The notes beneath the pieces are model-generated. The model was not told the origin of the DNA. It was given only the letters and a program-made list of their open reading frames with translations, and did no database searches. Of a stretch of 40,954 bases of DNA, positions 33 to 20,550 are shown in pieces. A program made the position numbers and the translations under genes. Position 1 is the stretch's first letter. The number at the start of each line of letters is the position of its first letter. This DNA comes from a virus, in UHGV virus genome UHGV-0187710; one strand, given 5' to 3'.

Positions 33-1283
33 ATGGAAAGTAAAGTAGTTGTTCCGGCACAAGGCAAGAAGATCACCCTGCAAAACGGCAAACTCAACGT
101 TCCTGAAAATCCGATTATCCCTTACATTGAAGGTGATGGAATCGGTGTAGATGTAACCCCAGCCATGCTGAAAGTGGTCGACGCTGCAGTCGAGAAAGCC
201 TATAAAGGCGAGCGTAAAATCTCCTGGATGGAAATTTACACCGGTGAAAAATCCACACAGGTTTACGGTCAGGATGTCTGGCTGCCTGCTGAAACCCTTG
301 ATCTGATTCGTGAATATCGCGTTGCCATTAAAGGCCCTCTGACCACTCCGGTTGGTGGCGGTATTCGTTCTCTGAACGTTGCCCTGCGCCAGGAACTGGA
401 TCTCTACATCTGCCTGCGTCCGGTACGTTACTATCAGGGCACCCCAAGCCCGGTTAAACACCCTGAACTGACCGATATGGTTATCTTCCGTGAAAACTCG
501 GAAGACATTTATGCGGGTATCGAATGGAAAGCAGACTCTGCCGACGCTGAGAAAGTGATTAAATTCCTGCGTGAAGAGATGGGCGTGAAGAAAATTCGCT
601 TCCCGGAACATTGCGGCATCGGTATTAAGCCGTGTTCTGAAGAAGGTACCAAACGTCTGGTTCGTGCAGCGATCGAATACGCAATTGCTAACGATCGTGA
701 CTCTGTGACCCTGGTGCACAAAGGCAACATCATGAAGTTCACCGAAGGCGCGTTTAAAGACTGGGGCTACCAGCTGGCGCGTGAAGAGTTTGGCGGTGAA
801 CTGATCGACGGCGGCCCGTGGCTGAAAGTTAAAAACCCGAATACCGGCAAAGAGATCGTCATTAAAGATGTGATTGCTGATGCATTCCTGCAACAGATCC
901 TGCTGCGTCCGGCTGAATATGATGTTATCGCCTGTATGAACCTGAACGGTGACTACATTTCTGACGCTCTGGCTGCACAGGTCGGCGGTATCGGTATCGC
1001 CCCAGGCGCAAACATCGGTGACGAATGCGCCCTGTTTGAAGCCACCCACGGTACTGCGCCGAAATATGCCGGTCAGGACAAAGTAAACCCAGGCTCTATT
1101 ATTCTCTCCGCTGAGATGATGTTACGCCATATGGGTTGGACTGAAGCGGCTGACCTGATTGTTAAAGGTATGGAAGGCGCAATCAATGCCAAGACCGTAA
1201 CCTATGACTTCGAACGTCTGATGGAAGGCGCTAAACTGCTGAAATGTTCAGAATTTGGTGACGCGATCATCGAAAACATGTAA
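33..1283 (+). CDS. icd: NADP-dependent isocitrate dehydrogenase; the 3' end is the known lambdoid integration target, so the last part may be phage-supplied
   Basis: 416-aa ORF whose full-length sequence is recognisable as enterobacterial Icd (ends ...[16 protein letters not shown]); GC-balanced host-like composition; followed by a hairpin terminator. Confidence 0.97.
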
Positions 1284-1395: not shown

Positions 1396-2013
1396 GTGAA
1401 ACGCATAAGGATAAAGAAACCAAGATGGATTTTTGTTATTTTATTTTTTGTATTTTTAGGTATTCCATTATTTATTGATGGTATCAAGTATACTGATTAC
1501 GCTTCAGAGAATTTGCTGCCTGAATTTACTGGTGTAATACTTGAGTTTGTAATCATTCTTTATGTTATTGATTATATTCAAAAGAAAAATGAGCGTGATA
1601 ATAAAATAAAAGCAGAAAAACGTTTGCGTGAAATGTTTATTTTTTTCTTTAATAAACTGAATGACCACGTTCCTGAAAATTGCAGGATCGGATCTTTTTA
1701 CGGGCGAGAGCATGATAAAAATAAGCGTCAAATGTCATTAATGAAAGCCCATATAGAAAAACATGGGCTAGATGAAAAGGCAATAAGAGAAATTCGTATT
1801 CATTGCAAAGGTGATATTGATTTATTCAATAGTTTTATTCCAGTTGTTGCTACATTAGAAGAGCAGCATTTAAAAGCATGGACGAGAATTTCATATTACA
1901 TGAATGCAATAATTACGGAAAGAGAAACTGTACAATTTTCCGTTATAAAAATCATTGATAAAATACAGACATTTGATGATGCATCCTATAATAATAAACT
2001 GATAGTAGATTAA
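1396..2013 (+). CDS. hypothetical membrane-anchored protein, AT-rich cargo gene between icd and int
   Basis: 205-aa ORF with GTG start preceded by GAGG; hydrophobic N-terminal segment (WIFVILFFVFLGIPLF); visibly AT-rich relative to flanking genes; no recognisable motif. Confidence 0.55.
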   Translation: MKRIRIKKPRWIFVILFFVFLGIPLFIDGIKYTDYASENLLPEFTGVILEFVIILYVIDYIQKKNERDNKIKAEKRLREMFIFFFNKLNDHVPENCRIGSFYGREHDKNKRQMSLMKAHIEKHGLDEKAIREIRIHCKGDIDLFNSFIPVVATLEEQHLKAWTRISYYMNAIITERETVQFSVIKIIDKIQTFDDASYNNKLIVD

Positions 2014-3137
2014 GAGGGTATTTTTTGCCATTCTTTACCTCTGTCATCATGATATTTATCTGTTTGATGCTGGGTTTTATGACCCAGCAATTTTTGTGTA
2101 TCAATTCCCTGGTCTTTGTAAAGACGTTCAGACAATGATCTTTGCTCATGGAATGTAGCGGGTGTTCCATCTCCCCATTTAATACAAGCCTTATCCCTCG
2201 CCTTACTGAAATTCATCGTTAATGTGTTCGATTTAACTTGTGCGCCTCGTTTAGCCTGTGATGTAGCTCGGAAAAAGTGAATCAGATAGGGGCTAACTGC
2301 ATAATCTCGACAGCGCGCAACGACGTCACGTAAACTCCAGTTAATCGCATTGAGGCGAAGAGAAAGAGGTATAGCAATTTTGCTGCCGGTTTTTTCCTGT
2401 TCGATATGCAGATGATCATCCCAGATATCGCTAAATTTCATTTTGGATATGTCACCAAGACGTTGCCCAGTCACAAGGGCAAGCAGCATTGCATTTCCCA
2501 TATATTGATGTTTCTTATCTGCGATATCGAAAATCTTCAGCCACTCTTCGAGACTAAGTCGTTGTCTGGTAATCTTGCGCCTGGGCTGTTTAGTAGCAAG
2601 GGCAGGGTTGTGACCAGGCGGCACTTCACCGTAGTGTTGGGCCTCTTTGAAAACATCGATCAGTACTGAACGAACAACTTGTGCCATTCTTGGTTGACCT
2701 GCAGATAGATACTCTTCAAGAATTTGAGCAATATCCCTGACATCAACAGAAGATATGAGCTTCATTCCCGCACGTTCCTTAAGAAGTGCAACTGGCTTGG
2801 CTTTTTGTTTATACGTATTCTCCTTGATATCACCTGAAGCGAATCTTTCCTCCTGAATTTTCCAGTACCGCTCAAGCCAGGTAACAGTGGTAATTGACTT
2901 ACCCTTGCCGGTAGCAATTCGATCGCTTATAGCCAGTACCTGTCTTGAACGCTGCTCAGCAAGTCTTGCGTTTGCCTCAGTAGCAATTGCTTTAGCCTCA
3001 ACTTCATCAGTACCTAGGCTGTGAAATTTCCCCGTTACAGGATGCTTGTACCTCCAATACACTTTATTGACCTTACGACTGTATAGTGGATAGAGGTTAG
3101 GTATTGATACATTATTTTTACGTGGTCTCGCAGCCAT
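2010..3137 (-). CDS. int: tyrosine-recombinase integrase, lambda Int family
   Basis: N-terminus MAARPRKNNVSIPNLYP and C-terminus FHEQRSLSERLY...LLGHKTQHQTDKYHDDRGKEWQKI resemble lambda Int as recalled; start taken at the internal Met at 3137 (the track ORF extends to 3215); overlaps the xis 3' end as in lambda. Confidence 0.93.
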   Translation of the reverse strand: MAARPRKNNVSIPNLYPLYSRKVNKVYWRYKHPVTGKFHSLGTDEVEAKAIATEANARLAEQRSRQVLAISDRIATGKGKSITTVTWLERYWKIQEERFASGDIKENTYKQKAKPVALLKERAGMKLISSVDVRDIAQILEEYLSAGQPRMAQVVRSVLIDVFKEAQHYGEVPPGHNPALATKQPRRKITRQRLSLEEWLKIFDIADKKHQYMGNAMLLALVTGQRLGDISKMKFSDIWDDHLHIEQEKTGSKIAIPLSLRLNAINWSLRDVVARCRDYAVSPYLIHFFRATSQAKRGAQVKSNTLTMNFSKARDKACIKWGDGTPATFHEQRSLSERLYKDQGIDTQKLLGHKTQHQTDKYHDDRGKEWQKIPS

Positions 3138-3363
3138 CGCTGAGGATCCTTTGCAATTTTGGTGAATCAGATTTCTTGATAACCGGCGCAGCAAGTTCTC
3201 CAACCAATTCCGCATCCTCCCTAACTCTCCAGAGCCTACCTTGCTTCATTGCTGGTGGAGAAAAGAGATTTTGCTTAGCGTAACGGCGCAATGTCGAGAC
3301 GCTAGGTGGATTACTTCTGTATTTATCGGTTGCCCATTCTTCAAGAGTTAACATCTGAATCAT
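3118..3363 (-). CDS. xis: excisionase (Xis-like)
   Basis: 81-aa ORF directly upstream of and overlapping int; N-terminal LTLEEWA...PPAMKQGRLW resembles lambda Xis as recalled; GGAG 8 nt upstream of the ATG. Confidence 0.75.
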   Translation of the reverse strand: MIQMLTLEEWATDKYRSNPPSVSTLRRYAKQNLFSPPAMKQGRLWRVREDAELVGELAAPVIKKSDSPKLQRILSDGCETT

Positions 3364-3711: not shown

Positions 3712-4037
3712 GCTGCCCCCCTACGTTGATGGCCCAGTGCGTGACGCGCTTCTATCGGGTCCTCTTCTTCGTATTCACCATTGACGCTTTTCACCATCGC
3801 CACGCAGCATTCGTTGCAGCACCGATAGGACATAAGTTCGCCGTCGAATTTCCACGCCGTACTACGGTGAATTTCATCCTTTAAAATTACGCCAGCGCAA
3901 ATGTGGCATTTGTATTCACCTCGAGAGGTAACGATTTTGTTCGATAGTTCTGTATCGCATGGCGTACCGAAATCACCTTCGAAAAGATCAAAGTCCAGTG
4001 CGTCGTCTAAATCCTGTTTGTTGAGTGAGTTAGTCAT
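3708..4037 (-). CDS. hypothetical Cys-rich (putative zinc-binding) protein
   Basis: ORF with CxxC ... CCxxCC pattern (CHIC ... CCNECC); start chosen at the internal ATG 4037; 8-nt overlap with the upstream gene stop. Confidence 0.55.
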   Translation of the reverse strand: MTNSLNKQDLDDALDFDLFEGDFGTPCDTELSNKIVTSRGEYKCHICAGVILKDEIHRSTAWKFDGELMSYRCCNECCVAMVKSVNGEYEEEDPIEARHALGHQRRGAA

Positions 4038-4374
4038 TCCAGGCCTCCAGCTCATTCTGAATCTCTTCGTCGATTTCGTCATTGGTGGCGTCTTCGTTCA
4101 GATAGGCGTGCGCCTCTTTGAAATACTTGTCGCGGCGTTCGTCATACCAGGCAGAGAACTCAGGCGACCAGGCATGGGTATGTCCGAAAAAATCGACTCT
4201 GGCGTTATCTTCTGCGAGACGCTCAACCATGCAGTAAGCTGTGATCAAACCGCATTCACGGATGTACCCACGCAGGTCGCGCTTGCGCCAGTACGGGCTA
4301 TATTTCGAGTCGCAGCGGCTTTTAAATTCGACAGTCCAGCGACGGATGCAACGTGCGTTCAGTGATTTACTCAT
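4030..4374 (-). CDS. hypothetical phage early protein
   Basis: 114-aa ORF, acidic C-terminus, tightly packed in the leftward operon. Confidence 0.6.
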   Translation of the reverse strand: MSKSLNARCIRRWTVEFKSRCDSKYSPYWRKRDLRGYIRECGLITAYCMVERLAEDNARVDFFGHTHAWSPEFSAWYDERRDKYFKEAHAYLNEDATNDEIDEEIQNELEAWND

Positions 4375-4625
4375 TGAGTTGCTCCCTGTCTGGCTCTATT
4401 CAATAACTGGTTAAACATCATGGTTAGGCTGTTACTGCACCCAAATGGCATATCGTTAACACGGTATGTTGGAATGCCCTTGCGAACACCTGACTTCACG
4501 ATCCGGCCGGTGCCATAGAGTTGCGATAATGCGCCAGCGACCGCGGGTGTCTTTTTGTTCATACCTTTGGCGATTTCACCGCTGGTGGTATTCGGATGAG
4601 CCTGGAGATATTCAAATACGGTCAT
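4371..4625 (-). CDS. small putative DNA-binding protein (winged-helix-like)
   Basis: 84-aa ORF; the start ATG overlaps the upstream stop (ATGA). Confidence 0.6.
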   Translation of the reverse strand: MTVFEYLQAHPNTTSGEIAKGMNKKTPAVAGALSQLYGTGRIVKSGVRKGIPTYRVNDMPFGCSNSLTMMFNQLLNRARQGATQ

Positions 4626-4789
4626 GGCGTTTTACCTTTACGTTCCTGTTCCAGTTGCACCAGAGACTCTTTTAATGCTGCGAACGTAGCGTCCAGTCTG
4701 GTGGCAACTTCGCGCATAAGCGGTGCATGCTTTGGTGGCAGTTCAGCAACGGAGGCAAAAGCCTCCGTAACGAGTTCTTTTACCTTCAT
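4622..4789 (-). CDS. small hypothetical protein (55 aa), missing from the 60-aa-minimum ORF track
   Basis: ORF MKVKELVTEAFASVAELPPKHAPLMREVATRLDATFAALKESLVQLEQERKGKTP; ATGA start/stop overlaps on both sides (coupled with the HD gene and with 4371..4625). Confidence 0.4.
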   Translation of the reverse strand: MKVKELVTEAFASVAELPPKHAPLMREVATRLDATFAALKESLVQLEQERKGKTP

Positions 4790-5325
4790 GCGGCGCATTG
4801 GCGCAGCTCCGCCAGTTCGTTAAAGCGGTTCATGAACAGGCCATAGGATTGACCTGGACGGAGAGGGATAACCTGAACGAGATCAGAGCAGGGAATACCT
4901 TCGAGAATTTCCCACTTCGAACCGTTATCGATTTCCAGATCACGGCGCTCGGTAGCTAACATGGTTAGATCGGCGTATTTCACGACGGCAGATTGCTCAA
5001 GCGGGATACCGAATTTAAAGCGGATAAGACCATCAACATAAGTTTCCATGCGCTGGTAGTCAGGCAGCAAGGCTTTGAGCGGGGCTGGAATATCCTGGCA
5101 ATATGCCTCCGCAGCGTCGTGCATCAACGCTTCAAAGGCGAACTCTGGCGGCACAATCTGGCTTACAAGCACAGAGTGCTGGGCCACGCTGTAGAACTCT
5201 GGCAGATGCCCAGCGAATCGACAGATGTTGGAAAGAGCAGTCGCGATATCCTCAACATCGATATCGTCGATTGTGGCGGTCAGGTAGTTAAATTTTTTAC
5301 CGGATAATGTCTGAATGTAGCTCAT
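4786..5325 (-). CDS. HD-domain phosphohydrolase (YfdR-like)
   Basis: H...HD...E metal-binding pattern (AQHSVLV ... ALMHDAAEAY); start at ATG 5325 with GGAG 6 nt upstream. Confidence 0.75.
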   Translation of the reverse strand: MSYIQTLSGKKFNYLTATIDDIDVEDIATALSNICRFAGHLPEFYSVAQHSVLVSQIVPPEFAFEALMHDAAEAYCQDIPAPLKALLPDYQRMETYVDGLIRFKFGIPLEQSAVVKYADLTMLATERRDLEIDNGSKWEILEGIPCSDLVQVIPLRPGQSYGLFMNRFNELAELRQCAA

Positions 5326-5417
5326 GGTTTTCTCCATATTGGCGCGCTGCACCACGCAGATTTTGGTTGCACGAATCCCTCGCCGGATGGCGATAATTAA
5401 TGGAATTACGCTTCAAT

Positions 5418-5441
5418 AAATCCCCGCGGCGCCGGGGATTT
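5418..5441. other. stem-loop between the HD and DUF2303-like genes
   Basis: perfect 9-bp inverted repeat aaatccccg / cggggattt with a 6-nt loop; no strong U-tract on either strand. Confidence 0.4.
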
Positions 5442-5453
5442 AATGCAGAGCAA

Positions 5454-6281
5454 TTAGGCTTTAAAGTTACCGATGAAAGTTTCCACTGATTCACCTTCGA
5501 ACTTGCTGATCAGCAAATCGCGGAATTCATTGGCGATAGCTTCTTCCTGGGCTTCCAGTTGTACTATGCGCAGTACAAAACGAGGTTCATCACCTGTAAG
5601 CAAACTGTTGCGTAAGCTAAAGCGGCGTTCGCCTAAACCTTCATACGGCACACATTTGAATTCGAACGTTACCGGCATTACGTCTTTGCTGCTGGCTTCA
5701 ATACTCTGCATAAGCGATTTTTTGCCGCTGAAATCGCTGTCTTCATGATCCTGCTGGGTTGCCTGCTGGATAGTGATACGACGAACGGACTGAGCGGCTT
5801 GTGAAATCTGCATCGTTCCACCTTCAGCGTCGAACGCTAAGAGGTAATCGCTCCAGTCTTCCAGCCACTCGGCGATTTGTTTTTGTTTCAGACGTTCACC
5901 GTTGATCTGGAGAAGAGCACGGAATGGTGCGGTCTGTTTTAGGGTGATGGATGCAACATTGTCCGCATGACCGGGGTTATCGAGTGTGCCAATGTTGAAT
6001 ACTGAACGGGCTGTCATATGGTCAGCGTCAATAAAGCAGCGTGCTTTTTCAGTGGCGCTGGCATAGCCTTTTGAATAACGAGCAAAATCTTCAATGCTGG
6101 TCGTGGTCATGGCACCGCGGAAGCGGAAACGCTCCAGAGAAAAACGCTCGAGGCTTTCAATGCCGGTACCCTCTGGCAGTAATGCGGTCGGGCAAGCCAG
6201 GCCATGAATATCATTCAGGTGGTAGCCAGAAAGGACCAGGTCTTTTACCTGCTGAAATGTACCGCTGTCTAACTGGGACAT
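5454..6281 (-). CDS. DUF2303 / YfdQ-like phage protein
   Basis: 275-aa ORF; length, position and sequence character fit the YfdQ-type family that sits next to YfdR-like HD proteins in P22/lambdoid prophages (from memory, unverified). Confidence 0.7.
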   Translation of the reverse strand: MSQLDSGTFQQVKDLVLSGYHLNDIHGLACPTALLPEGTGIESLERFSLERFRFRGAMTTTSIEDFARYSKGYASATEKARCFIDADHMTARSVFNIGTLDNPGHADNVASITLKQTAPFRALLQINGERLKQKQIAEWLEDWSDYLLAFDAEGGTMQISQAAQSVRRITIQQATQQDHEDSDFSGKKSLMQSIEASSKDVMPVTFEFKCVPYEGLGERRFSLRNSLLTGDEPRFVLRIVQLEAQEEAIANEFRDLLISKFEGESVETFIGNFKA

Positions 6282-10373: not shown

Positions 10374-11240
10374 ATGAGCCAGATATTTGAAATCGTTCAA
10401 TCGCTGTCGGGGCAAAGGAATAGCATCACCATTCCGGTCCCGTACCTCGATTATTTCTCCGGCGATCAGCAGGCGCATGCTTTGGGCGCTGTGCTAAACC
10501 AGCTCGTGTTCTGGTCTGGTAAATCAGATCTGAATGATGGCTGGTTTTATAAAGAGCACAGCGAGCTTGCGGCAGAGATTCGCGGCGTGAGTGAAGATCA
10601 GGTGCAGCGCCTGGTAAACAAGATTTGTACCCGCTGGCTACCAGGGGTTGTTGAAAAGGCGCAGCGACAGGTAAACGGCACGAAAAAGACGCATTACCGT
10701 ATCAATGGCGAAGCGCTAATCAATGTTTTATTCCCGGCAACGCTGGATTCCGCAGAATCGCGGAACGGGAAACGCGAAGTCGCGGAACCTATTCTCTATA
10801 CAGATCATTACTCAGATCACCACAAACAGATCATTAACCCCTCTTGTCCGGTTGCGCCGCAACCAGACCCTGAGGTGTTGATCACTGATAACGCCATCCT
10901 GGTTTTAACTCATTTGAACCAGGTAAGCGGCTCCCGGTACCAGAAATCTAAAACCTCTCTGGAAAACATACGTGCCCGTCTGCGTGAAGGTTATACCGTC
11001 AGCGACTTAACGCTGGTGATTGACCTCAAGCATGAACACTGGAACGGCAATGACGCGCAGTATCAGTACATGCGGCCTGAAACTCTGTTTGGGCCGAAAA
11101 AATTTGAGGGTTATCTGCAAAGCGGGCTCCGCTGGGATAAGAAAGGCCGTCCCCCTCGTGAAAGCTGGGGCGAGAAGAAACATGACCCGATGAAGTTCGG
11201 CCCGGTAGATACCAAAATTCCAGAGGGATTCAGAGGATGA
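10374..11240 (+). CDS. replication initiation protein (replisome organiser with conserved phage C-terminal domain)
   Basis: 288-aa ORF at the O-gene position; C-terminal region (LTHLNQVSGSRYQKSKTSLENIRARLREGYTVSDL...) resembles the conserved phage replication C-terminus as recalled. Confidence 0.8.
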   Translation: MSQIFEIVQSLSGQRNSITIPVPYLDYFSGDQQAHALGAVLNQLVFWSGKSDLNDGWFYKEHSELAAEIRGVSEDQVQRLVNKICTRWLPGVVEKAQRQVNGTKKTHYRINGEALINVLFPATLDSAESRNGKREVAEPILYTDHYSDHHKQIINPSCPVAPQPDPEVLITDNAILVLTHLNQVSGSRYQKSKTSLENIRARLREGYTVSDLTLVIDLKHEHWNGNDAQYQYMRPETLFGPKKFEGYLQSGLRWDKKGRPPRESWGEKKHDPMKFGPVDTKIPEGFRG

Positions 11241-12559
11241 TTGAAAACAAATACTGCCGCGCGCTGGCCGAACTGCGTTCAAAACCAGCTCACGAATTGA
11301 AAGAAGTTGGCGATCAGTGGCGGACACCGGATCTGCTTTTCTGGGGTATCAACGCGCTATTTGGTCCATTAGTTCTGGACTTGTTTGCTGACGACGACAA
11401 CGCGAAATGCCCGGCATGGTGCACCGCCGAAGATAACGCACTGACGCAGGACTGGACTGAACGTCTGGCAGAACTGGGTGGCGCGGCTTTTGCCAACCCT
11501 CCATATAGCTGCTCGCAGTACCACGAGAAACAGGCGATCACTGGTATGACGCACATCATGAAGTACGCAGCAACCCAGCGCGAGAAGGGCGGTCGCTATG
11601 TATTCCTGATAAAAGCCGCGCCGAGTGAAACGTGGTGGCCGGAAGATGCCGATCACATTGTATTCATTCGCGGGCGCATTGGTTTCGATCTGCCAGTGTG
11701 GTTTGTACCTGCTGACGAAAAACAGAAGCCCACCAGCGCGTTTTTTTCCGGAGCCATAGCTGTATTCGATAAGTCATGGCGTGGCGAGCGATTCAGCTAT
11801 ATCAACCGCACAGAACTGGAAACAAAAGGGCGAGCGTTTATGGCTTTGGCACAGTTTGCCACCAGCAAACCTCAGCCAGCAACCGCCACACCACCTGTAG
11901 CTGACAAGCCAGAAGCAGAGTTGCCACTTACCCAGAAAGATATTTTTGATATCAGCGGTGTTGAGGCGTGGGCATGCGTTAGAGCTGCGTTCGGCGATAA
12001 AGAAGAATACACATTCAGTGAATCGAAGTTTGGGCATACCTGGGCGGCGGATTCTGTCGAAGCACCGGAATTCACTCAGGTATCACCATTAACGATCGAC
12101 AAAGCGAAGCTGCTTATTCGTGAGAGTATTTTGCTCGGTGTGGATGAGTGGCTGTTGTCGATTGAATTCGATGACGCTGCTGCGCGCCTGGATATGTCGG
12201 AACGTATTCGTACTGTTGCCCTTGAAGCATCTGGTGAATATGGCATGAACAGTACTGATTTCATTGCAGCTATGGGAAGCCTGGATGTTTCCAGTTGGTC
12301 CAATATTCGCCAGATCCGCATGCACATCCGTGAGAAAGCTAAACCAGTAGCCGATCAGCTTCCCGAGTCCCGTATATGGCCACTGGAGGTTGGAATTGTA
12401 TTCGACCAGGTGGATGGTGCTGACATGCTGGATGAATCACAGCAGAACAAGCTGAAAGCCAACATCAATCAACTCTGGCTGGAACGAACGGCCACCAGCG
12501 AAATTATCACAATTGCGCAAGGTCTTGTCGACAGCATGCAGGGGGTAACTCATGCGTGA
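11237..12559 (+). CDS. phage Dam-type N6-adenine DNA methyltransferase fused to a roughly 220-aa C-terminal domain of unknown function
   Basis: N-terminal WRTPDLLF ... FADDDN ... FANPPYS motifs; Pro/Ala-rich linker (KPQPATATPPVADKPEAE) then a long extension; ATGA overlap with the preceding gene. Confidence 0.8.
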   Translation: MIENKYCRALAELRSKPAHELKEVGDQWRTPDLLFWGINALFGPLVLDLFADDDNAKCPAWCTAEDNALTQDWTERLAELGGAAFANPPYSCSQYHEKQAITGMTHIMKYAATQREKGGRYVFLIKAAPSETWWPEDADHIVFIRGRIGFDLPVWFVPADEKQKPTSAFFSGAIAVFDKSWRGERFSYINRTELETKGRAFMALAQFATSKPQPATATPPVADKPEAELPLTQKDIFDISGVEAWACVRAAFGDKEEYTFSESKFGHTWAADSVEAPEFTQVSPLTIDKAKLLIRESILLGVDEWLLSIEFDDAAARLDMSERIRTVALEASGEYGMNSTDFIAAMGSLDVSSWSNIRQIRMHIREKAKPVADQLPESRIWPLEVGIVFDQVDGADMLDESQQNKLKANINQLWLERTATSEIITIAQGLVDSMQGVTHA

Positions 12560-12674
12560 AACAGTCTTTTATCGCCCTGCCGGTATAGCGCCTATTTCGG
12601 ATGTTGTTCAACGTGTTCGTCACTATAGCGGGAAAGTTGAGGTATGTTTCAGGAATTATGACGGAGGCTTTTAA
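12552..12674 (+). CDS. small hypothetical protein (40 aa), coupled between the methyltransferase and rusA
   Basis: ATG 12552 preceded by AGGGGG; its stop overlaps the rusA start (TAATG); reads MRETVFYRPAGIAPISDVVQRVRHYSGKVEVCFRNYDGGF. Confidence 0.35.
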   Translation: MRETVFYRPAGIAPISDVVQRVRHYSGKVEVCFRNYDGGF

Positions 12675-13060
12675 TGAGGCTCATACTCCCATTTCCACCC
12701 AGCGTGAACACTTACTGGCGCGCTCCTAACAAGGGGGCGCAGGCTGGTCGTCACCTCATTAGCGCTGAAGGCCGTAAATACCAGAGCGCTGCCTGCGTGG
12801 CGATCATTGAGCAATTACGACGTCTCCCGAAGCCATCGACTGAACTGGCAGCGGTAGAAATCACTCTGTACCCGCCGGATGCGCGCCGCCGGGATATCGA
12901 TAATTACAACAAAGCCCTGTTTGACGCGCTGACGCATGCGGGTGTCTGGGAAGATGACAGCCAGATTAAGCGCATGCTGGTGGAATGGGGACCCGTAGTG
13001 CCGAAAGGTCGGGTAGAGATAACGATCAGCAGATATGAACCGGCGGGTGCAGCCGCCTGA
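12674..13060 (+). CDS. rusA: RusA-family Holliday junction resolvase
   Basis: 128-aa protein with the characteristic RusA N-terminus MRLILPFPPSVNTYW and nin-region position. Confidence 0.92.
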   Translation: MRLILPFPPSVNTYWRAPNKGAQAGRHLISAEGRKYQSAACVAIIEQLRRLPKPSTELAAVEITLYPPDARRRDIDNYNKALFDALTHAGVWEDDSQIKRMLVEWGPVVPKGRVEITISRYEPAGAAA

Positions 13061-15626: not shown

Positions 15627-16478
15627 ATGAAAATAGATAATCCCGAAAATCCACTTGAACGAAACGATTTTTCGATGGATGACTTCCATCACTACTTAAG
15701 GGAGTTTGATAAAGCTGTATGTGAAGCGAATGCTGTAAGTCAGGGGGTTGGTGTGCGAATGGCTGAGGCTTTTAAAGGGTGGTCTACATACATTTTTTCA
15801 CGAATCTGCATTCATGCTTCAATAATGATTTCCAACGTACCAAAATCAAGATGGGCTAAGCGGGATTATGACTTTTGGGATTTTTCGGCGATTGCACCTC
15901 ATGTAAGAGCGATTCTGGAAGCTGAGTTATTGTTTATGTATTTATCTGAGAATCCAGATTCAACTGAGGAGTGGTCAGCAAAGTTGAATGTCATGCACAT
16001 GAATGATTGTGTAAAGAGAATTGAGTTATTTACATCTAGTGATAATACGAAAGCATTGGATTTTTATCATGAACAAAAAGATATAATAACTGAGAGACTT
16101 AATAACAACCCTGTTTTTTTATCCCTTGAACAAGGAACCAGAAAACGTTGCTTGACTGGAAAAGCGCTTATGATTCCAAATCGAGATGAGTTATTGGTTA
16201 AACTGGGAAAAGATCCAAAGTCATTTAAAATAATGTTCGATTTTTTATCTCATTATACGCATATACTACCTATGTCATATTATAAAATGGAGCCAAACGG
16301 AAGAGGAACTGGTTGTTTTAACAACTATGACTTTGGCTATATGATTATGGGGATGATTATTTGTACTGAATCCTTGACTAAGTGTACAGATAGATTAGTA
16401 GAACTTTTTCCTGATGTTAGACGGTTGCGAAAAGGAACTAAATCAAAATTCACGTTAGGTCCTAAACCTACAAAATAA
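15627..16478 (+). CDS. hypothetical cytoplasmic protein, AT-rich cargo gene between the Q-like gene and the lysis cassette
   Basis: 283-aa ORF, strongly AT-rich compared with neighbours, no recognisable catalytic motif; followed by a hairpin terminator. Confidence 0.65.
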   Translation: MKIDNPENPLERNDFSMDDFHHYLREFDKAVCEANAVSQGVGVRMAEAFKGWSTYIFSRICIHASIMISNVPKSRWAKRDYDFWDFSAIAPHVRAILEAELLFMYLSENPDSTEEWSAKLNVMHMNDCVKRIELFTSSDNTKALDFYHEQKDIITERLNNNPVFLSLEQGTRKRCLTGKALMIPNRDELLVKLGKDPKSFKIMFDFLSHYTHILPMSYYKMEPNGRGTGCFNNYDFGYMIMGMIICTESLTKCTDRLVELFPDVRRLRKGTKSKFTLGPKPTK

Positions 16479-19012: not shown

Positions 19013-19154
19013 GGTTATTGACACCGGCTGCGATTGGGTAAAACCCATCTACGGCACTGCTCATGATTGGGAAGTGCTGGACAGGCAGACCAAGAAAGAC
19101 ATTCTTATGCATAACAAAGTGTGGATGTCAAACTGTGGCTCTATAACTTATTGA
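18933..19154 (+). CDS. o-spanin (Rz1-like lipoprotein), overlapping the i-spanin 3' end in another frame
   Basis: signal peptide with lipobox LIASC; overlapped spanin architecture. Confidence 0.65.
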   Translation: MYNRLLTICLMTLLIASCAKTGHVRIEVIDTGCDWVKPIYGTAHDWEVLDRQTKKDILMHNKVWMSNCGSITY

Positions 19155-19805
19155 TTTTGTTTTTTTGTTGTCTACCATATCAGGCAATGTGAAGGCATAT
19201 AGAAGAAATACTTCGGTGAAACCAATCATTTCTTGAGCATCTTCTTTTGAAAATTCTTCATCAGAATGAACTGCTCCATTGGAATCGATTCGAACTATAT
19301 GTGCCCATTCCCTCATTTGATCTGTAATCAGTCCCTTAGCATGCAACATAGAAATCCGTTTAACCAATTTTTCATCTTTTGAGTCATTTCCCAGTAACTC
19401 CCGTGTAGCAATGTCCAAGACTTTACGGCAAAGCATAACGGATGTGTCGAAACGACAGCGCCCTAAGTTGTCTTTTGCTTCTATGAAAGCCATAGCAGCA
19501 CGTGGCGGAGTGTGTTCGGGGGCGTTAAGGAGGGTGGGTTTCGGGATGATATCAATCAACTGGTACTCAGTATTTCCAGGAATGATTACGTTTACATCAT
19601 TATTTTGCCTAGATTTTGCACGAGGTAAATAACCACCGGGATTATTCATTTTTACAATAGCAATACCTGATTGAAAACAGCTTCGACAACAAAATGCAAT
19701 ATTAACTAAAGGCCCGGCGTTGATACGCAGTTCTGCCCATCCTTCAAGGACAGCATTTTCCCTCAGACAATGTGGGCAAGTGATATCGAAAGTGAGAATT
19801 CGCAT
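19128..19805 (-). CDS. zinc-ribbon protein with DUF4145-like (HEPN-superfamily-like) C-terminal domain; candidate abortive-infection/defence cargo
   Basis: start at internal ATG 19805; N-terminal CPHC ... CCRSC; C-terminal FIEAKDNLGRCRFDTSVMLCRKVLDIATRELL ... HIVRIDSNGAVHSDEEFSKEDAQE pattern recalled as DUF4145; opposite strand to the lysis genes. Confidence 0.7.
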   Translation of the reverse strand: MRILTFDITCPHCLRENAVLEGWAELRINAGPLVNIAFCCRSCFQSGIAIVKMNNPGGYLPRAKSRQNNDVNVIIPGNTEYQLIDIIPKPTLLNAPEHTPPRAAMAFIEAKDNLGRCRFDTSVMLCRKVLDIATRELLGNDSKDEKLVKRISMLHAKGLITDQMREWAHIVRIDSNGAVHSDEEFSKEDAQEMIGFTEVFLLYAFTLPDMVDNKKTKSISYRATV

Positions 19806-20550
19806 GACTCTACTCCATACATTAAAAGAAATTGAAAATGAATTACACAATGCACAACGACCTGAGTCTACACTCCTTCAACGATATGAAGTATCGAATG
19901 AGATTAAAAAAAAGGAGTTTGTAGTCGCTTTGATCGGTAAACTGATAGAATTGGACCGCCGTCTCTATGTCACATCATTGAAGCCTTAGTTTCAATTTTA
20001 CCGATTTATCGCTTAAGGGGTAGGACTTCAACACTACTAAGTGAGCATTGCAGCAGGCATTCAGGGGAATGCTGTGACAGTAGTTAGCTAGGGTAAACCG
20101 TTTGCGCCTGGGGATTTTACTTTGCGACGGAAAATTAAAAAACTATATGATTTCTTATCCCACTAGGATGTCTGCGGACTACTACTGACTGTTTAGGCTA
20201 TTACGAGGGGCTCAAACTCAACGTCTGGCATCAACGCAGAACTGAAAAAGTCGCCATGAATGTGGTTACGGTATTTGGTGGGATATAAACGTACCTTCAT
20301 TTCTAAGCTTGATAATCACCTTTGTCCGAATTGCCTACGCGATAGTCATGTAGTTTTAGTCATAACCGTTTACCCTATTGATGTCAAGATAAATTGGATA
20401 ACACTGATGAATCGAACCTCTAAATCCTTTGATGGGCCACTCATAGCTGACTGGTTCAAAAAAGTGTTATCAATGGTATGATAAGTTGAGATGAAAGGTG
20501 TAAATGAACTATAATAATTCAACAGTTAATCTGAGAAAAATGGATTATGT

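What the first reader, a model, noticed from the sequence alone, without database searches (positions are those of the whole stretch)
11237..12559. Dam-like N6-adenine methyltransferase fused to a long C-terminal domain of unknown function
The N-terminal roughly 190 aa carries the phage Dam family hallmarks, including the NPPY catalytic motif (FANPPYS). A Pro/Ala-rich linker and about 220 further residues follow, with no motif I recognise. Phage Dam enzymes of this family are usually stand-alone and about half this length. The extension could retarget the enzyme or be an unrelated fused protein; the gene is tightly coupled to the replication gene upstream and a 40-codon ORF downstream.
Basis: partly seen in the sequence, partly recalled or inferred. 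Interest (0 to 1): 0.45.

Follow-up and report, generated by a model that had tools for sequence, protein, structure and literature searches.

The report
Phage Dam methylase with two add-ons
A prophage DNA adenine methyltransferase carries two extra helical modules: one is a fused copy of a small protein that normally sits just before a phage cytosine methyltransferase gene (lost here), and the other is an uncatalogued domain also found on ParB-like proteins in the same genome slot.

Summary
ORF 11237..12559 (+) encodes 440 aa. Residues 16-199 are a PF05869/TIGR01712 phage Dam with NPPY; the rest has no Pfam or NCBIfam match.

The "long C-terminal domain" is two independent helical, acidic modules joined by disordered linkers, M (228-367) and T (381-440). 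Both are under purifying selection.

Neither looks like a target-recognition domain. Relatives with near-identical Dam cores occur as Dam, Dam-T, Dam-M and Dam-M-T.

T is the fused form of an ~85-aa stand-alone protein (PHROG 16025). In 69 of 79 loci chosen only through a large phage C5-cytosine methyltransferase (all the Enterobacterales ones), a T-bearing gene sits immediately upstream, usually with overlapping stop and start codons. There T is free or fused to Dam, MT-A70, another methyltransferase or a ParB-like head.

M has no family in four libraries and no fold match. It is an optional add-on to Dam or ParB-like heads in the same slot after the replication initiator.

This copy also carries Y62C and R92C at near-invariant Dam positions.

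The biochemical roles of M and T are inferred, not shown.

The parts
10374..11240 (+). Upstream replication initiator (Phg_2220_C type, 288 aa). Its TGA stop overlaps the Dam ATG.
   Evidence: PF09524, E 7.7e-24, and PHROG 428 'replication initiation protein'. It lies immediately upstream of the Dam/ParB slot in nearly all related loci.
11237..12559 (+). Whole gene: Dam-M-T fusion protein, 440 aa.
   Evidence: ORF. Full-length homologues at 65-94% identity occur in Citrobacter, E. coli, Salmonella, Klebsiella, Pantoea and Erwinia. Escherichia phages Eeyore and Flotzy carry the same architecture.
11237..11860 (+). Dam catalytic core, residues 1-208 (motif I-like VLDLFAD 46-52; motif IV NPPY 87-90).
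   Evidence: PF05869 and TIGR01712 above their cut-offs. dN/dS 0.076.
11420..11422 (+). Codon 62, TGC (Cys), where relatives have Tyr.
   Evidence: Y in 278 of 283 unique Dam domains. C occurs only here and in the identical L012.
11510..11512 (+). Codon 92, TGC (Cys), directly after NPPYS, where relatives have Arg.
   Evidence: R in 276 of 280 unique Dam domains. C occurs only here and in L012.
11861..11917 (+). Variable Pro/Ala/Thr-rich linker, residues 209-227.
   Evidence: Variable in length and sequence in A1. pLDDT below 50. dN/dS 0.35.
11918..12337 (+). Module M, residues 228-367: all-helical, acidic (pI 4.5). Conserved core motif WAC..AAFGDK.EYTFSESKFxHTWAADS, and C-terminal W.NIR..R.
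   Evidence: AlphaFold2 pLDDT about 90. No hit in Pfam, NCBIfam, PHROGs or PADLOC. No fold match. dN/dS 0.17, with M1 at 0.09. Also found C-terminal to ParB-HTH heads.
12338..12376 (+). Second linker, residues 368-380.
   Evidence: pLDDT below 50 at residues 372-381. dN/dS 0.46.
12377..12556 (+). Module T, residues 381-440: three-helix, acidic (pI 4.2). Motif WPxEV..VF.Q...L...Q..L...IN..WLE.
   Evidence: Matches PHROG 16025 (E 2e-10) and the tail of PHROG 111. Stand-alone 85-aa homologues match PHROG 16025 over 1-85/85. dN/dS 0.15. Lies immediately upstream of the C5-MTase in 69 of 79 loci picked through the C5-MTase.
12552..12674 (+). 40-codon ORF, a junction segment. Its first 8 nt (ATGCGTGA) are the conserved start of the C5-MTase gene of relatives (MRE...). 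The remaining 126-nt spacer is unrelated filler.
   Evidence: Against Dam-T loci, homology runs to 12559 and then resumes at 12686 (RusA, 97%), while L005 has a 1,935-nt C5-MTase in between. The spacer is found in only 6 of ~170 loci. No family hit.
12674..13060 (+). RusA Holliday-junction resolvase, the downstream backbone gene.
   Evidence: PF05866, E 1.5e-16. Conserved position in related loci.

Best explanation
The gene is a three-part mosaic in a hypervariable DNA-modification slot of e14/ST64B-like lambdoid prophages. That slot lies between the Phg_2220_C replication initiator and RusA.

Part 1 (shown). Residues 1-208 are an orphan PF05869 phage N6-adenine methyltransferase. It is translationally coupled to the replication gene, so it is made early, when phage DNA replicates. 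GATC is the family precedent for its target, but this is only inferred here.

Part 2 (shown). T, residues 381-440, was once a separate ~85-aa gene (PHROG 16025). That gene is the constant upstream neighbour of a large phage C5-cytosine methyltransferase, with overlapping stop and start codons. It has repeatedly fused to whatever gene lies upstream of it: Dam, PAPS-reductase-Dam, MT-A70, a small FDPPH methyltransferase, or a ParB-like protein.

Part 2 (inferred). T is a protein-protein adaptor or accessory subunit that the C5-methyltransferase needs. When fused to Dam, it would join adenine and cytosine methylation in one complex, protecting phage DNA against several restriction systems.

In this window the C5-methyltransferase has been replaced by 126 nt, so T is an orphaned but intact tail.

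Part 3 (shown). M, residues 228-367, is an optional helical acidic add-on. It occurs on two unrelated DNA-binding heads, Dam and ParB-like, in the same slot.

Part 3 (inferred). M is an interaction or oligomerisation module, possibly tethering the head to the initiator or replisome. It is not a DNA-sequence reader.

This particular copy may be catalytically weakened by Y62C and R92C.
For: Dam core: Pfam and TIGRFAM matches are far above their cut-offs, and NPPY is present.

Modularity:
- Alignment A1 shows Dam-T (293 aa), Dam-M (397-412 aa) and Dam-M-T (439-460 aa) with closely similar Dam cores (58-92% whole-protein identity to the window) and variable linkers.
- AlphaFold2 gives two confident helical domains with disordered linkers.
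- dN/dS is 0.17 for M and 0.15 for T, against 0.35-0.46 for the linkers.

T and the C5-MTase:
- 80 loci were fetched only through the C5-MTase, one genome per species. Of the 79 with a recognisable C5-MTase, 69 have a T-bearing ORF immediately upstream.
- The gap from the T stop to the C5-MTase start is -4 nt in 39 loci and -8 nt in 15.
- T is fused to five different heads or stands alone.
- Stand-alone T equals PHROG 16025 over its full length.
- Fusions keep the whole small protein, including its N-terminal coil.
- Published phages show the same layout: Klebsiella phage 5 LV-2017 and Escherichia phage Eeyore.

Loss in the window: homology to Dam-T loci ends at the Dam stop and resumes at RusA, and there is no C5-MTase anywhere in the window.

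M on ParB heads in the identical slot.

Not a TRD: both modules are acidic, there is no fold or sequence match to any solved structure, they are dispensable, and they occur on non-methyltransferase heads.
Against: - No direct evidence shows that T binds the C5-MTase or that M binds anything. No multimer prediction or experiment was possible.
- 39 of 70 informative Dam-M-T loci, and ST64B (Dam-T), lack the C5-MTase yet keep an intact T. There is no rise in dN/dS (0.16 against 0.14). T must therefore have, or retain, some value without the adjacent C5-MTase, unless the pairwise statistic mostly reflects older divergence.
- No natural T-C5-MTase fusion was seen.
- The association of M with the initiator is confounded by relatedness of the phages, and Dam-T phages have the same initiator without M.
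- The closest characterised GATC enzyme, VT2-Sakai Dam, is only ~40% identical over 77 residues.
Confidence: 0.6

Rival explanations
1. The C-terminal region is a target-recognition or DNA-binding extension, like the C-terminal TRD of gamma-class enzymes such as M.TaqI. It would retarget the Dam core or make it processive.
For: - The motif order in the core (motif I-like before NPPY) would place a TRD at the C-terminus. This rests on established MTase classification, not on a test here.
- The conserved basic helix end of M (W.NIR..R..I) could touch DNA.
Against: - M has pI 4.5 (net -11) and T has pI 4.2 (net -6).
- Both are separated from the core by disordered, fast-evolving linkers.
- Dam cores 81-90% identical occur with no M and/or no T.
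- M sits on ParB-like proteins, and T occurs alone or on MT-A70 and other heads.
- There is no structural similarity to any solved MTase TRD.
Confidence: 0.08
2. In this copy M and T are functionless passengers. They would be relics of recombination in a mosaic region, with T orphaned by loss of the C5-MTase, and retained only because they are in frame.
For: - The C5-MTase is missing here.
- The Dam core itself carries two private substitutions at near-invariant sites, which suggests decay.
- The region is highly mosaic.
Against: - dN/dS of M and T is well below that of the linkers, and T is no more relaxed in loci without the C5-MTase.
- All invariant T and M positions are intact in the window.
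- The same architecture occurs in plaque-forming phages such as Eeyore and Flotzy.
Confidence: 0.12
3. T is an anti-restriction or immunity factor that travels with methyltransferases. For example, it could inhibit methylation-dependent (type IV, McrBC/Mrr-like) nucleases that would otherwise attack the phage's own methylated DNA.
For: - T is small and acidic, is always co-transcribed and translationally coupled with a promiscuous-looking C5-MTase, and is fused to several adenine MTases.
- It persists under purifying selection beside Dam alone.
- The precedent of small acidic inhibitors such as T4 Arn comes from memory and was not tested.
Against: - No similarity to any known anti-restriction protein.
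- Stand-alone T proteins are only mildly acidic.
- This idea does not explain why T must directly abut the C5-MTase start codon.
Confidence: 0.1
4. M is a replisome or initiator tether. It would dock whichever DNA-acting head it carries (Dam or ParB-like) onto the Phg_2220_C initiator or a host replication protein, so that nascent phage DNA is acted on at the fork.
For: - All ~98 M-bearing loci place the gene directly after, or one gene after, a window-like initiator. Stop and start codons overlap in the window.
- 18 of 20 ParB-M loci have that initiator, against about 20 of 59 ParB-only loci.
- There is no helicase-loader gene in the module.
Against: - The association is confounded by phage relatedness.
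- Dam-T and ParB-only phages have the same initiator without M.
- There is no interaction evidence.
Confidence: 0.1

Closest known systems
Stand-alone phage Dam methyltransferases of PF05869/TIGR01712 (for example VT2-Sakai orf32 = M.EcoVT2Dam, reported to target GATC, PMC6602927; T1 and HP1 Dam from memory)
   Same: Same catalytic family, with NPPY motif IV. It is an orphan enzyme in the early-right/nin region of a temperate phage.
   Different: Those enzymes are ~170-200 aa with nothing after the core; VT2-Sakai's is 175 aa. The window core is only ~40% identical to VT2-Sakai Dam over 77 residues. It carries M and T, and has Y62C and R92C.
Salmonella phage ST64B Sb44 and the 293-aa 'phage N-6-adenine-methyltransferase' of Citrobacter and Salmonella prophages (PADLOC profile PDLC03332)
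   Same: Dam core 81-90% identical, followed by a linker and the same T module. Same slot after a Phg_2220_C initiator.
   Different: They lack M. The 293-aa forms are followed by the 644-aa C5-MTase, whereas ST64B, like the window, goes straight to RusA.
PHROG 16025 small proteins (about 85 aa, labelled 'DNA methyltransferase'), for example ARB15724 of Klebsiella phage 5 LV-2017
   Same: Homologous to module T. Same WPxEV...INRxWLE motif.
   Different: They are free-standing, have an extra N-terminal coil, and always overlap the start of a C5-MTase gene. They have no methyltransferase motifs, so the label is guilt by association.
PAPS-reductase-like/Dam fusions (PHROG 33262; SfV, SfII, mEp460 and Stx2-phage 'dam')
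   Same: Another example of the PF05869 core fused to an extra domain. The Dam part is 73-74% identical.
   Different: The extra domain is N-terminal and belongs to a known family (PF01507). Some of these also end in T (L094, L126).
ParB-like proteins of lambdoid prophages (PHROG 1033) with a C-terminal M module (P0228 and relatives)
   Same: Same M module at 37-44% identity. Same slot: Init | X | RusA | Ant | DUF968.
   Different: The head is a ParB/HTH_ParB protein, not a methyltransferase. There is no T and no C5-MTase nearby.
E. coli K-12 YfdM (b2356, CPS-53 cryptic prophage)
   Same: 79% identical to residues 2-90 of the window protein. It is the only relative with a reported phenotype, propagation of phage SW1 (bioRxiv 10.1101/413146).
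   Different: It is a 91-aa stump that ends right after NPPY, with no M or T. It cannot be a complete methyltransferase.

Membership tests
PF05869 / TIGR01712 phage N6-adenine methyltransferase (Dam) | Profile match above the curated cut-off | tested here: met
   PF05869: 148.1 bits against 28.1. TIGR01712 (equivalog): 197.1 bits against 97.05.
PF05869 / TIGR01712 phage N6-adenine methyltransferase (Dam) | Catalytic motif IV (D/N)PPY and the motif I-like acidic loop (D48, D52) | tested here: met
   NPPY at residues 87-90. D48 and D52 are present and invariant among relatives.
PF05869 / TIGR01712 phage N6-adenine methyltransferase (Dam) | All near-invariant core residues retained | tested here: not met
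   Y62C and R92C: Y in 278/283 and R in 276/280 unique domains. Whether activity survives is unknown.
PF05869 / TIGR01712 phage N6-adenine methyltransferase (Dam) | m6A methylation of DNA, at GATC in characterised members | not testable with these tools
   Needs a methylome or an enzyme assay. The nearest characterised member is only ~40% identical over 77 residues. GATC is not depleted in the window (175 observed, 189 expected).
Orphan (solitary) phage methyltransferase, as opposed to a restriction-modification system | No cognate restriction endonuclease adjacent | tested here: met
   The neighbours are a replication initiator, a 40-aa ORF, RusA, Ant, DUF968 and Q. The same backbone appears in about 250 related loci.
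C-terminal target-recognition domain of gamma-class N6-adenine MTases | A DNA-contacting domain that is integral to and co-inherited with the catalytic core, with structural resemblance to known TRDs | tested here: not met
PHROG 16025 small protein (module T) | Profile match to PHROG 16025 | tested here: met
   Window residues 379-434 match profile positions 26-81 of 85, E 2.7e-10. Stand-alone homologues cover 1-85/85.
PHROG 16025 small protein (module T) | Encoded immediately upstream of a large phage C5-cytosine MTase, with the stop overlapping its start | tested here: not met
   Only the first 8 nt of the C5-MTase start survive in the window; the gene itself is absent. The feature is met in 69 of 79 C5-MTase-selected loci and in 31 of 70 informative Dam-M-T loci.
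Module M (no named family) | Membership of any curated family in Pfam, NCBIfam, PHROGs or PADLOC, or of a solved fold | tested here: not met

The most novel reading that the evidence does not exclude
T is an obligate accessory subunit (adaptor, activator or toxicity moderator) of a family of large, multi-repeat phage C5-cytosine methyltransferases. Its repeated fusion to four different adenine-methyltransferase families and to ParB would build bifunctional m6A+m5C protection complexes. M would be a previously unrecognised domain that docks DNA-acting phage proteins onto the Phg_2220_C replication initiator or the host replisome.
Probability: 0.25. Interest if true: 0.7.

Novelty: new variant of a known kind. 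Interest (0 to 1): 0.45.

Why it matters
Orphan phage methyltransferases are a main counter-defence against restriction systems, and they are normally treated as single-domain enzymes.

This work shows that in a widespread group of Enterobacterales prophages, including the one in probiotic E. coli Nissle 1917, the "methyltransferase" gene is a cassette of exchangeable parts.

A small uncharacterised protein, T, is tied genetically to a C5-cytosine methyltransferase tightly enough to suggest a two-component enzyme or a regulatory pair.

That gives a directly testable hypothesis: does the C5-methyltransferase need T?

It also corrects database labels. Dam-M-T is called "PAPS reductase" and the 85-aa T protein is called "DNA methyltransferase". 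M is flagged as an unclassified domain family.

For this particular window, the practical message is that the enzyme has lost its cytosine-methylase partner and may itself be impaired.

Tried and rejected
- Internal repeats: a self-BLAST of residues 206-440 found none. This rejects the idea that the size classes reflect repeat number.
- "Dam-less" hits P0009, P0010, P0013 and P0021 are internal deletions or fragments, not free M+T proteins. P0224 is likewise a fragment of a Dam-M protein.
- The 331-344, 405 and 544-aa forms are truncations or frameshift read-throughs into the C5-MTase.
- Profile searches of M and T against PDB sequences gave nothing below E 0.01.
- The full-length AlphaFold2 run gave a poor Dam core because the alignment was shallow (pLDDT 60.6, pTM 0.35). 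It says nothing about domain packing.
- The search for related loci with the T alignment failed because no stretch was conserved enough. The C5-MTase was used instead as an independent handle.
- M.EcoGII was considered as a relative. It is a beta-class enzyme of a different family.
- YfdM was considered as a possible T relic. It is the N-terminal stump of the Dam core.
- Origin of the 126-nt spacer: it has no similarity to any C5-MTase or other fetched locus beyond 6 near-identical copies. Whether it codes for anything cannot be decided.
- T-like tails upstream of non-enterobacterial C5-MTases: none were found, apart from a weak KWPAEV motif in L156.
- Literature searches for PF05869, for prophage adenine/cytosine MTase pairs and for named family members found no description of M or T.
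Full report
**Observation.**
The window has an ATG-initiated ORF at 11237..12559 (+) of 440 codons. Residues 19-199 match Pfam PF05869 (Dam; E 2.5e-43, 148 bits against a cut-off of 28), and residues 16-196 match TIGR01712 'phage N-6-adenine-methyltransferase' (197 bits against 97). The catalytic NPPY is at residues 87-90. A Pro/Ala/Thr-rich stretch (209-227) follows, and the remaining ~213 residues match nothing in Pfam or NCBIfam. The start overlaps the stop of the upstream Phg_2220_C replication-initiator gene (ATGA), and the stop overlaps the ATG of a 40-codon ORF (ATGCGTGA).

**Setting.**
The window is an e14/ST64B-like lambdoid prophage next to icd. It has a lambda-type integrase, an S24 repressor, a Phg_2220_C initiator, then this gene, RusA, Ant, DUF968 and Q. 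The closest proteins (93-94%) come from Citrobacter. E. coli Nissle 1917 and 24 other complete E. coli genomes carry a ~94% identical gene, annotated 'phage N-6-adenine-methyltransferase'.

**How unusual is the length?**
- In published phage genomes the Dam core is common: 412 records, 357 covering at least 80% of the core. Only 8 of 363 records cover at least 80% of the full protein.
- VT2-Sakai's Dam, the M.EcoVT2Dam type reported to methylate GATC (PMC6602927), is a 175-aa stand-alone PF05869 protein.
- Within one lineage of Enterobacterales prophages, however, ~440-aa forms are frequent. There are dozens of 90%-identity clusters in Citrobacter, E. coli, Salmonella, Klebsiella, Pantoea and Erwinia and 416 matches in IMG/VR. 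Plaque-forming phages such as Escherichia phage Eeyore have the same architecture.

**Anatomy of the extension.**
- Aligning the size classes shows a Dam core (1-208), a variable linker, module M (228-367), a second short linker, and module T (381-440).
- Relatives occur as Dam-T (293 aa, very common), Dam-M (397-412 aa, Atlantibacter) and Dam-M-T (439-460 aa). Other lengths are truncations or frameshift read-throughs.
- AlphaFold2 on residues 221-440 gives a confident model (mean pLDDT 86.6) of two all-helical domains separated by a disordered segment. The full-length run again shows both linkers as disordered.
- Both modules are acidic: M has pI 4.5 and net charge -11, T has pI 4.2 and net charge -6.
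- There is no internal repeat.
- Across 69 unique Dam-M-T genes, dN/dS is 0.08 for Dam, 0.17 for M (0.09 for its first half) and 0.15 for T, against 0.35-0.46 for the linkers. Both modules are therefore real, selected protein domains.

**Not a target-recognition domain.**
- Profile searches of M and T against PDB sequences are empty.
- The modules are acidic, sit on flexible linkers, are dispensable next to closely similar cores, and occur on proteins that are not methyltransferases (see below).

**Module T.**
- The window's T matches PHROG 16025 and the tail of PHROG 111.
- An exhaustive HMMER scan of 1.84 billion representatives found only 42 clusters matching M+T. These include small Dam-less proteins with T.
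- One such protein (L003) directly precedes a 693-aa C5-cytosine methyltransferase that starts MREIIVDNFAGGGG. Dam-T genes are likewise followed by a 644-aa C5-MTase.
- To remove selection bias I fetched 80 loci through the C5-MTase alone, one genome per species.
- Of the 79 with a recognisable C5-MTase, 69 have a T-bearing ORF immediately upstream. These are all the Enterobacterales ones. The T stop lies 4 nt (39 loci) or 8 nt (15 loci) inside the C5-MTase start.
- In those loci T stands alone (~85-98 aa) or forms the C-terminus of another protein. The partners are PF05869 Dam, PAPS-reductase-Dam, MT-A70 enzymes, a small FDPPH methyltransferase (PHROG 954) and a ParB-HTH protein.
- The fusions retain the entire small protein, including its N-terminal coil, so they arose by fusion of the upstream gene with the T gene.
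- Stand-alone T matches PHROG 16025 end to end. Its label 'DNA methyltransferase' is guilt by association.
- The ten C5-MTase loci without T are from Firmicutes and non-enteric Gammaproteobacteria.
- The dependence is asymmetric. The C5-MTase almost never occurs without T upstream, but T fused to Dam often occurs without the C5-MTase: 39 of 70 informative Dam-M-T loci, plus ST64B.

**What happened in the window.**
- Against Dam-T loci, nucleotide homology runs through T exactly to the Dam stop (12559), including the overlapping ATG. It resumes at RusA (12686 onward, 97%). In between, L005 has the 1,935-nt C5-MTase and the window has 126 unrelated nucleotides.
- That spacer is found in only 6 of ~170 loci, nearly identical each time, and matches no family.
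- No C5-MTase and no second M or T exist elsewhere in the window.

**Module M.**
- M has no family in Pfam, NCBIfam, PHROGs or PADLOC.
- It also occurs, at 37-44% identity, at the C-terminus of ParB-like proteins with a ParB HTH domain (PHROG 1033 heads).
- These ParB-M genes sit in exactly the same slot: initiator | (PerC) | ParB-M | RusA | Ant | DUF968 | Q.
- Across 80 ParB-head loci the head alone (260-280 aa) is the norm. About 19 loci carry M and one carries T. No ParB-M locus has T or a C5-MTase.
- M is thus an optional C-terminal add-on to two unrelated DNA-acting heads.
- Its most constrained part is the motif WAC..AAFGDK.EYTFSESKFxHTWAADS.
- All M-bearing loci follow a window-like initiator, but so do many M-less loci, and phage relatedness confounds the association.

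**Mechanism: shown and inferred.**
- Shown: the Dam core family and motifs; the two-module anatomy; purifying selection; the mobility of M and T; the near-obligate T-then-C5-MTase gene order with overlapping stop and start in Enterobacterales; and the loss of the C5-MTase here.
- Inferred: T is a protein-protein adaptor or accessory factor required by the C5-MTase. Fused to Dam, it would couple m6A and m5C protection of replicating phage DNA. M is an interaction or oligomerisation module, possibly a tether to the initiator or replisome.
- GATC specificity is only a family-level expectation. VT2-Sakai Dam is ~40% identical over 77 residues, and GATC is not avoided in the window.

**Caveat for this copy.**
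The window's Dam has Cys at positions 62 and 92, where 98% of 280-283 unique relatives have Tyr and Arg. Position 92 directly follows NPPYS. Only one identical IMG/VR contig shares these changes, so activity may be reduced.

**Comparison with what is known.**
- The nearest described entities are the stand-alone PF05869 Dam enzymes; ST64B Sb44 (Dam-T); the PAPS-reductase-Dam fusions of SfV and Stx phages; and K-12 YfdM, which is merely the first 89 residues of such a core.
- Literature searches found no description of M, of T, or of the T-C5-MTase pairing.
- M.EcoGII is a different, beta-class family.

**Verdict.**
It is refined to a three-part mosaic whose tail is the orphaned partner of a lost cytosine methyltransferase. 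It is a new variant of a known kind (an orphan phage methyltransferase), of moderate interest. The most interesting lead is the T-C5-MTase coupling rather than this gene itself.

Noticed in passing
window 11420-11422 and 11510-11512: Two private substitutions in the Dam core, Y62C and R92C, at positions conserved in about 98% of 280-283 unique relatives. R92 directly follows the catalytic NPPYS. They are shared only with one identical IMG/VR contig (L012), so this copy may be inactive or attenuated.
   Followed up: partly
window 12552-12674: The 40-codon ORF starts with the conserved ATG-CGT-GA of the relatives' C5-MTase gene (MRE...) and then runs into a 126-nt spacer. The spacer is found in only 6 of ~170 related loci and matches no protein family. 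It is probably a deletion or replacement scar rather than a gene.
   Followed up: yes
L003 6402-8483; L005 6875-8809; L091-L153 at about 4001-6100: The phage C5-cytosine methyltransferases downstream of T are unusually large (575-760 aa). Between the catalytic motifs they carry about seven tandem repeats of a (D/E)P..T(V/I)T... unit. This is reminiscent of the multiple TRDs of multispecific Bacillus-phage enzymes, a comparison made from memory. Their specificity is unknown.
   Followed up: no
L173 2352-3686 (Escherichia phage Eeyore); L172 3501-3758 (Klebsiella phage 5 LV-2017); NC_004313 sb44: Systematic mis-annotation in public records. Dam-M-T and Dam-T genes are labelled 'phosphoadenosine phosphosulfate reductase', propagated from PHROG 33262 fusions. 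The 85-aa T protein, which has no methyltransferase motifs, is labelled 'putative DNA methyltransferase'.
   Followed up: partly
L174 6113-6388 (E. coli K-12 yfdM, b2356): [quoted passage not shown] A preprint (10.1101/413146) nevertheless attributes a phage-propagation phenotype to it as a 'putative Dam methylase'. A fragment this short cannot be a complete methyltransferase.
   Followed up: partly
window 33-1283 and 2010-3215: The prophage lies next to an isocitrate dehydrogenase gene (Iso_dh) with a lambda-type integrase beside it. This is the icd integration site used by e14-like elements.
   Followed up: no
window 15627-16478 and 19128-19850 (-): Between Q and the late genes are ORFs with weak DUF5677 and DUF4145 matches. 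At the equivalent place, Nissle 1917 and L006 have a Clp-fold protease and a 350-aa PF01555 methyltransferase of M.EcoGII-like size. This appears to be a second variable cargo island.
   Followed up: no
L132 (contig binned as 'Geobacteraceae' MAG) and L154-L169: A contig assigned to a Geobacteraceae MAG carries a typical enterobacterial Init | Dam-M-T | C5-MTase | Ant | DUF968 prophage segment, which is probably a binning error. Separately, close relatives of the C5-MTase (49-56% identity) occur in Paenibacillus and Clostridia without any T module.
   Followed up: no
L165 (ParB head 274 aa | T 149 aa | C5-MTase) and L111 (ParB-T 349 aa | C5-MTase): The same ParB head and T module are found both as two adjacent genes and as one fused gene, in different species. 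This catches the fusion process in both states.
   Followed up: partly
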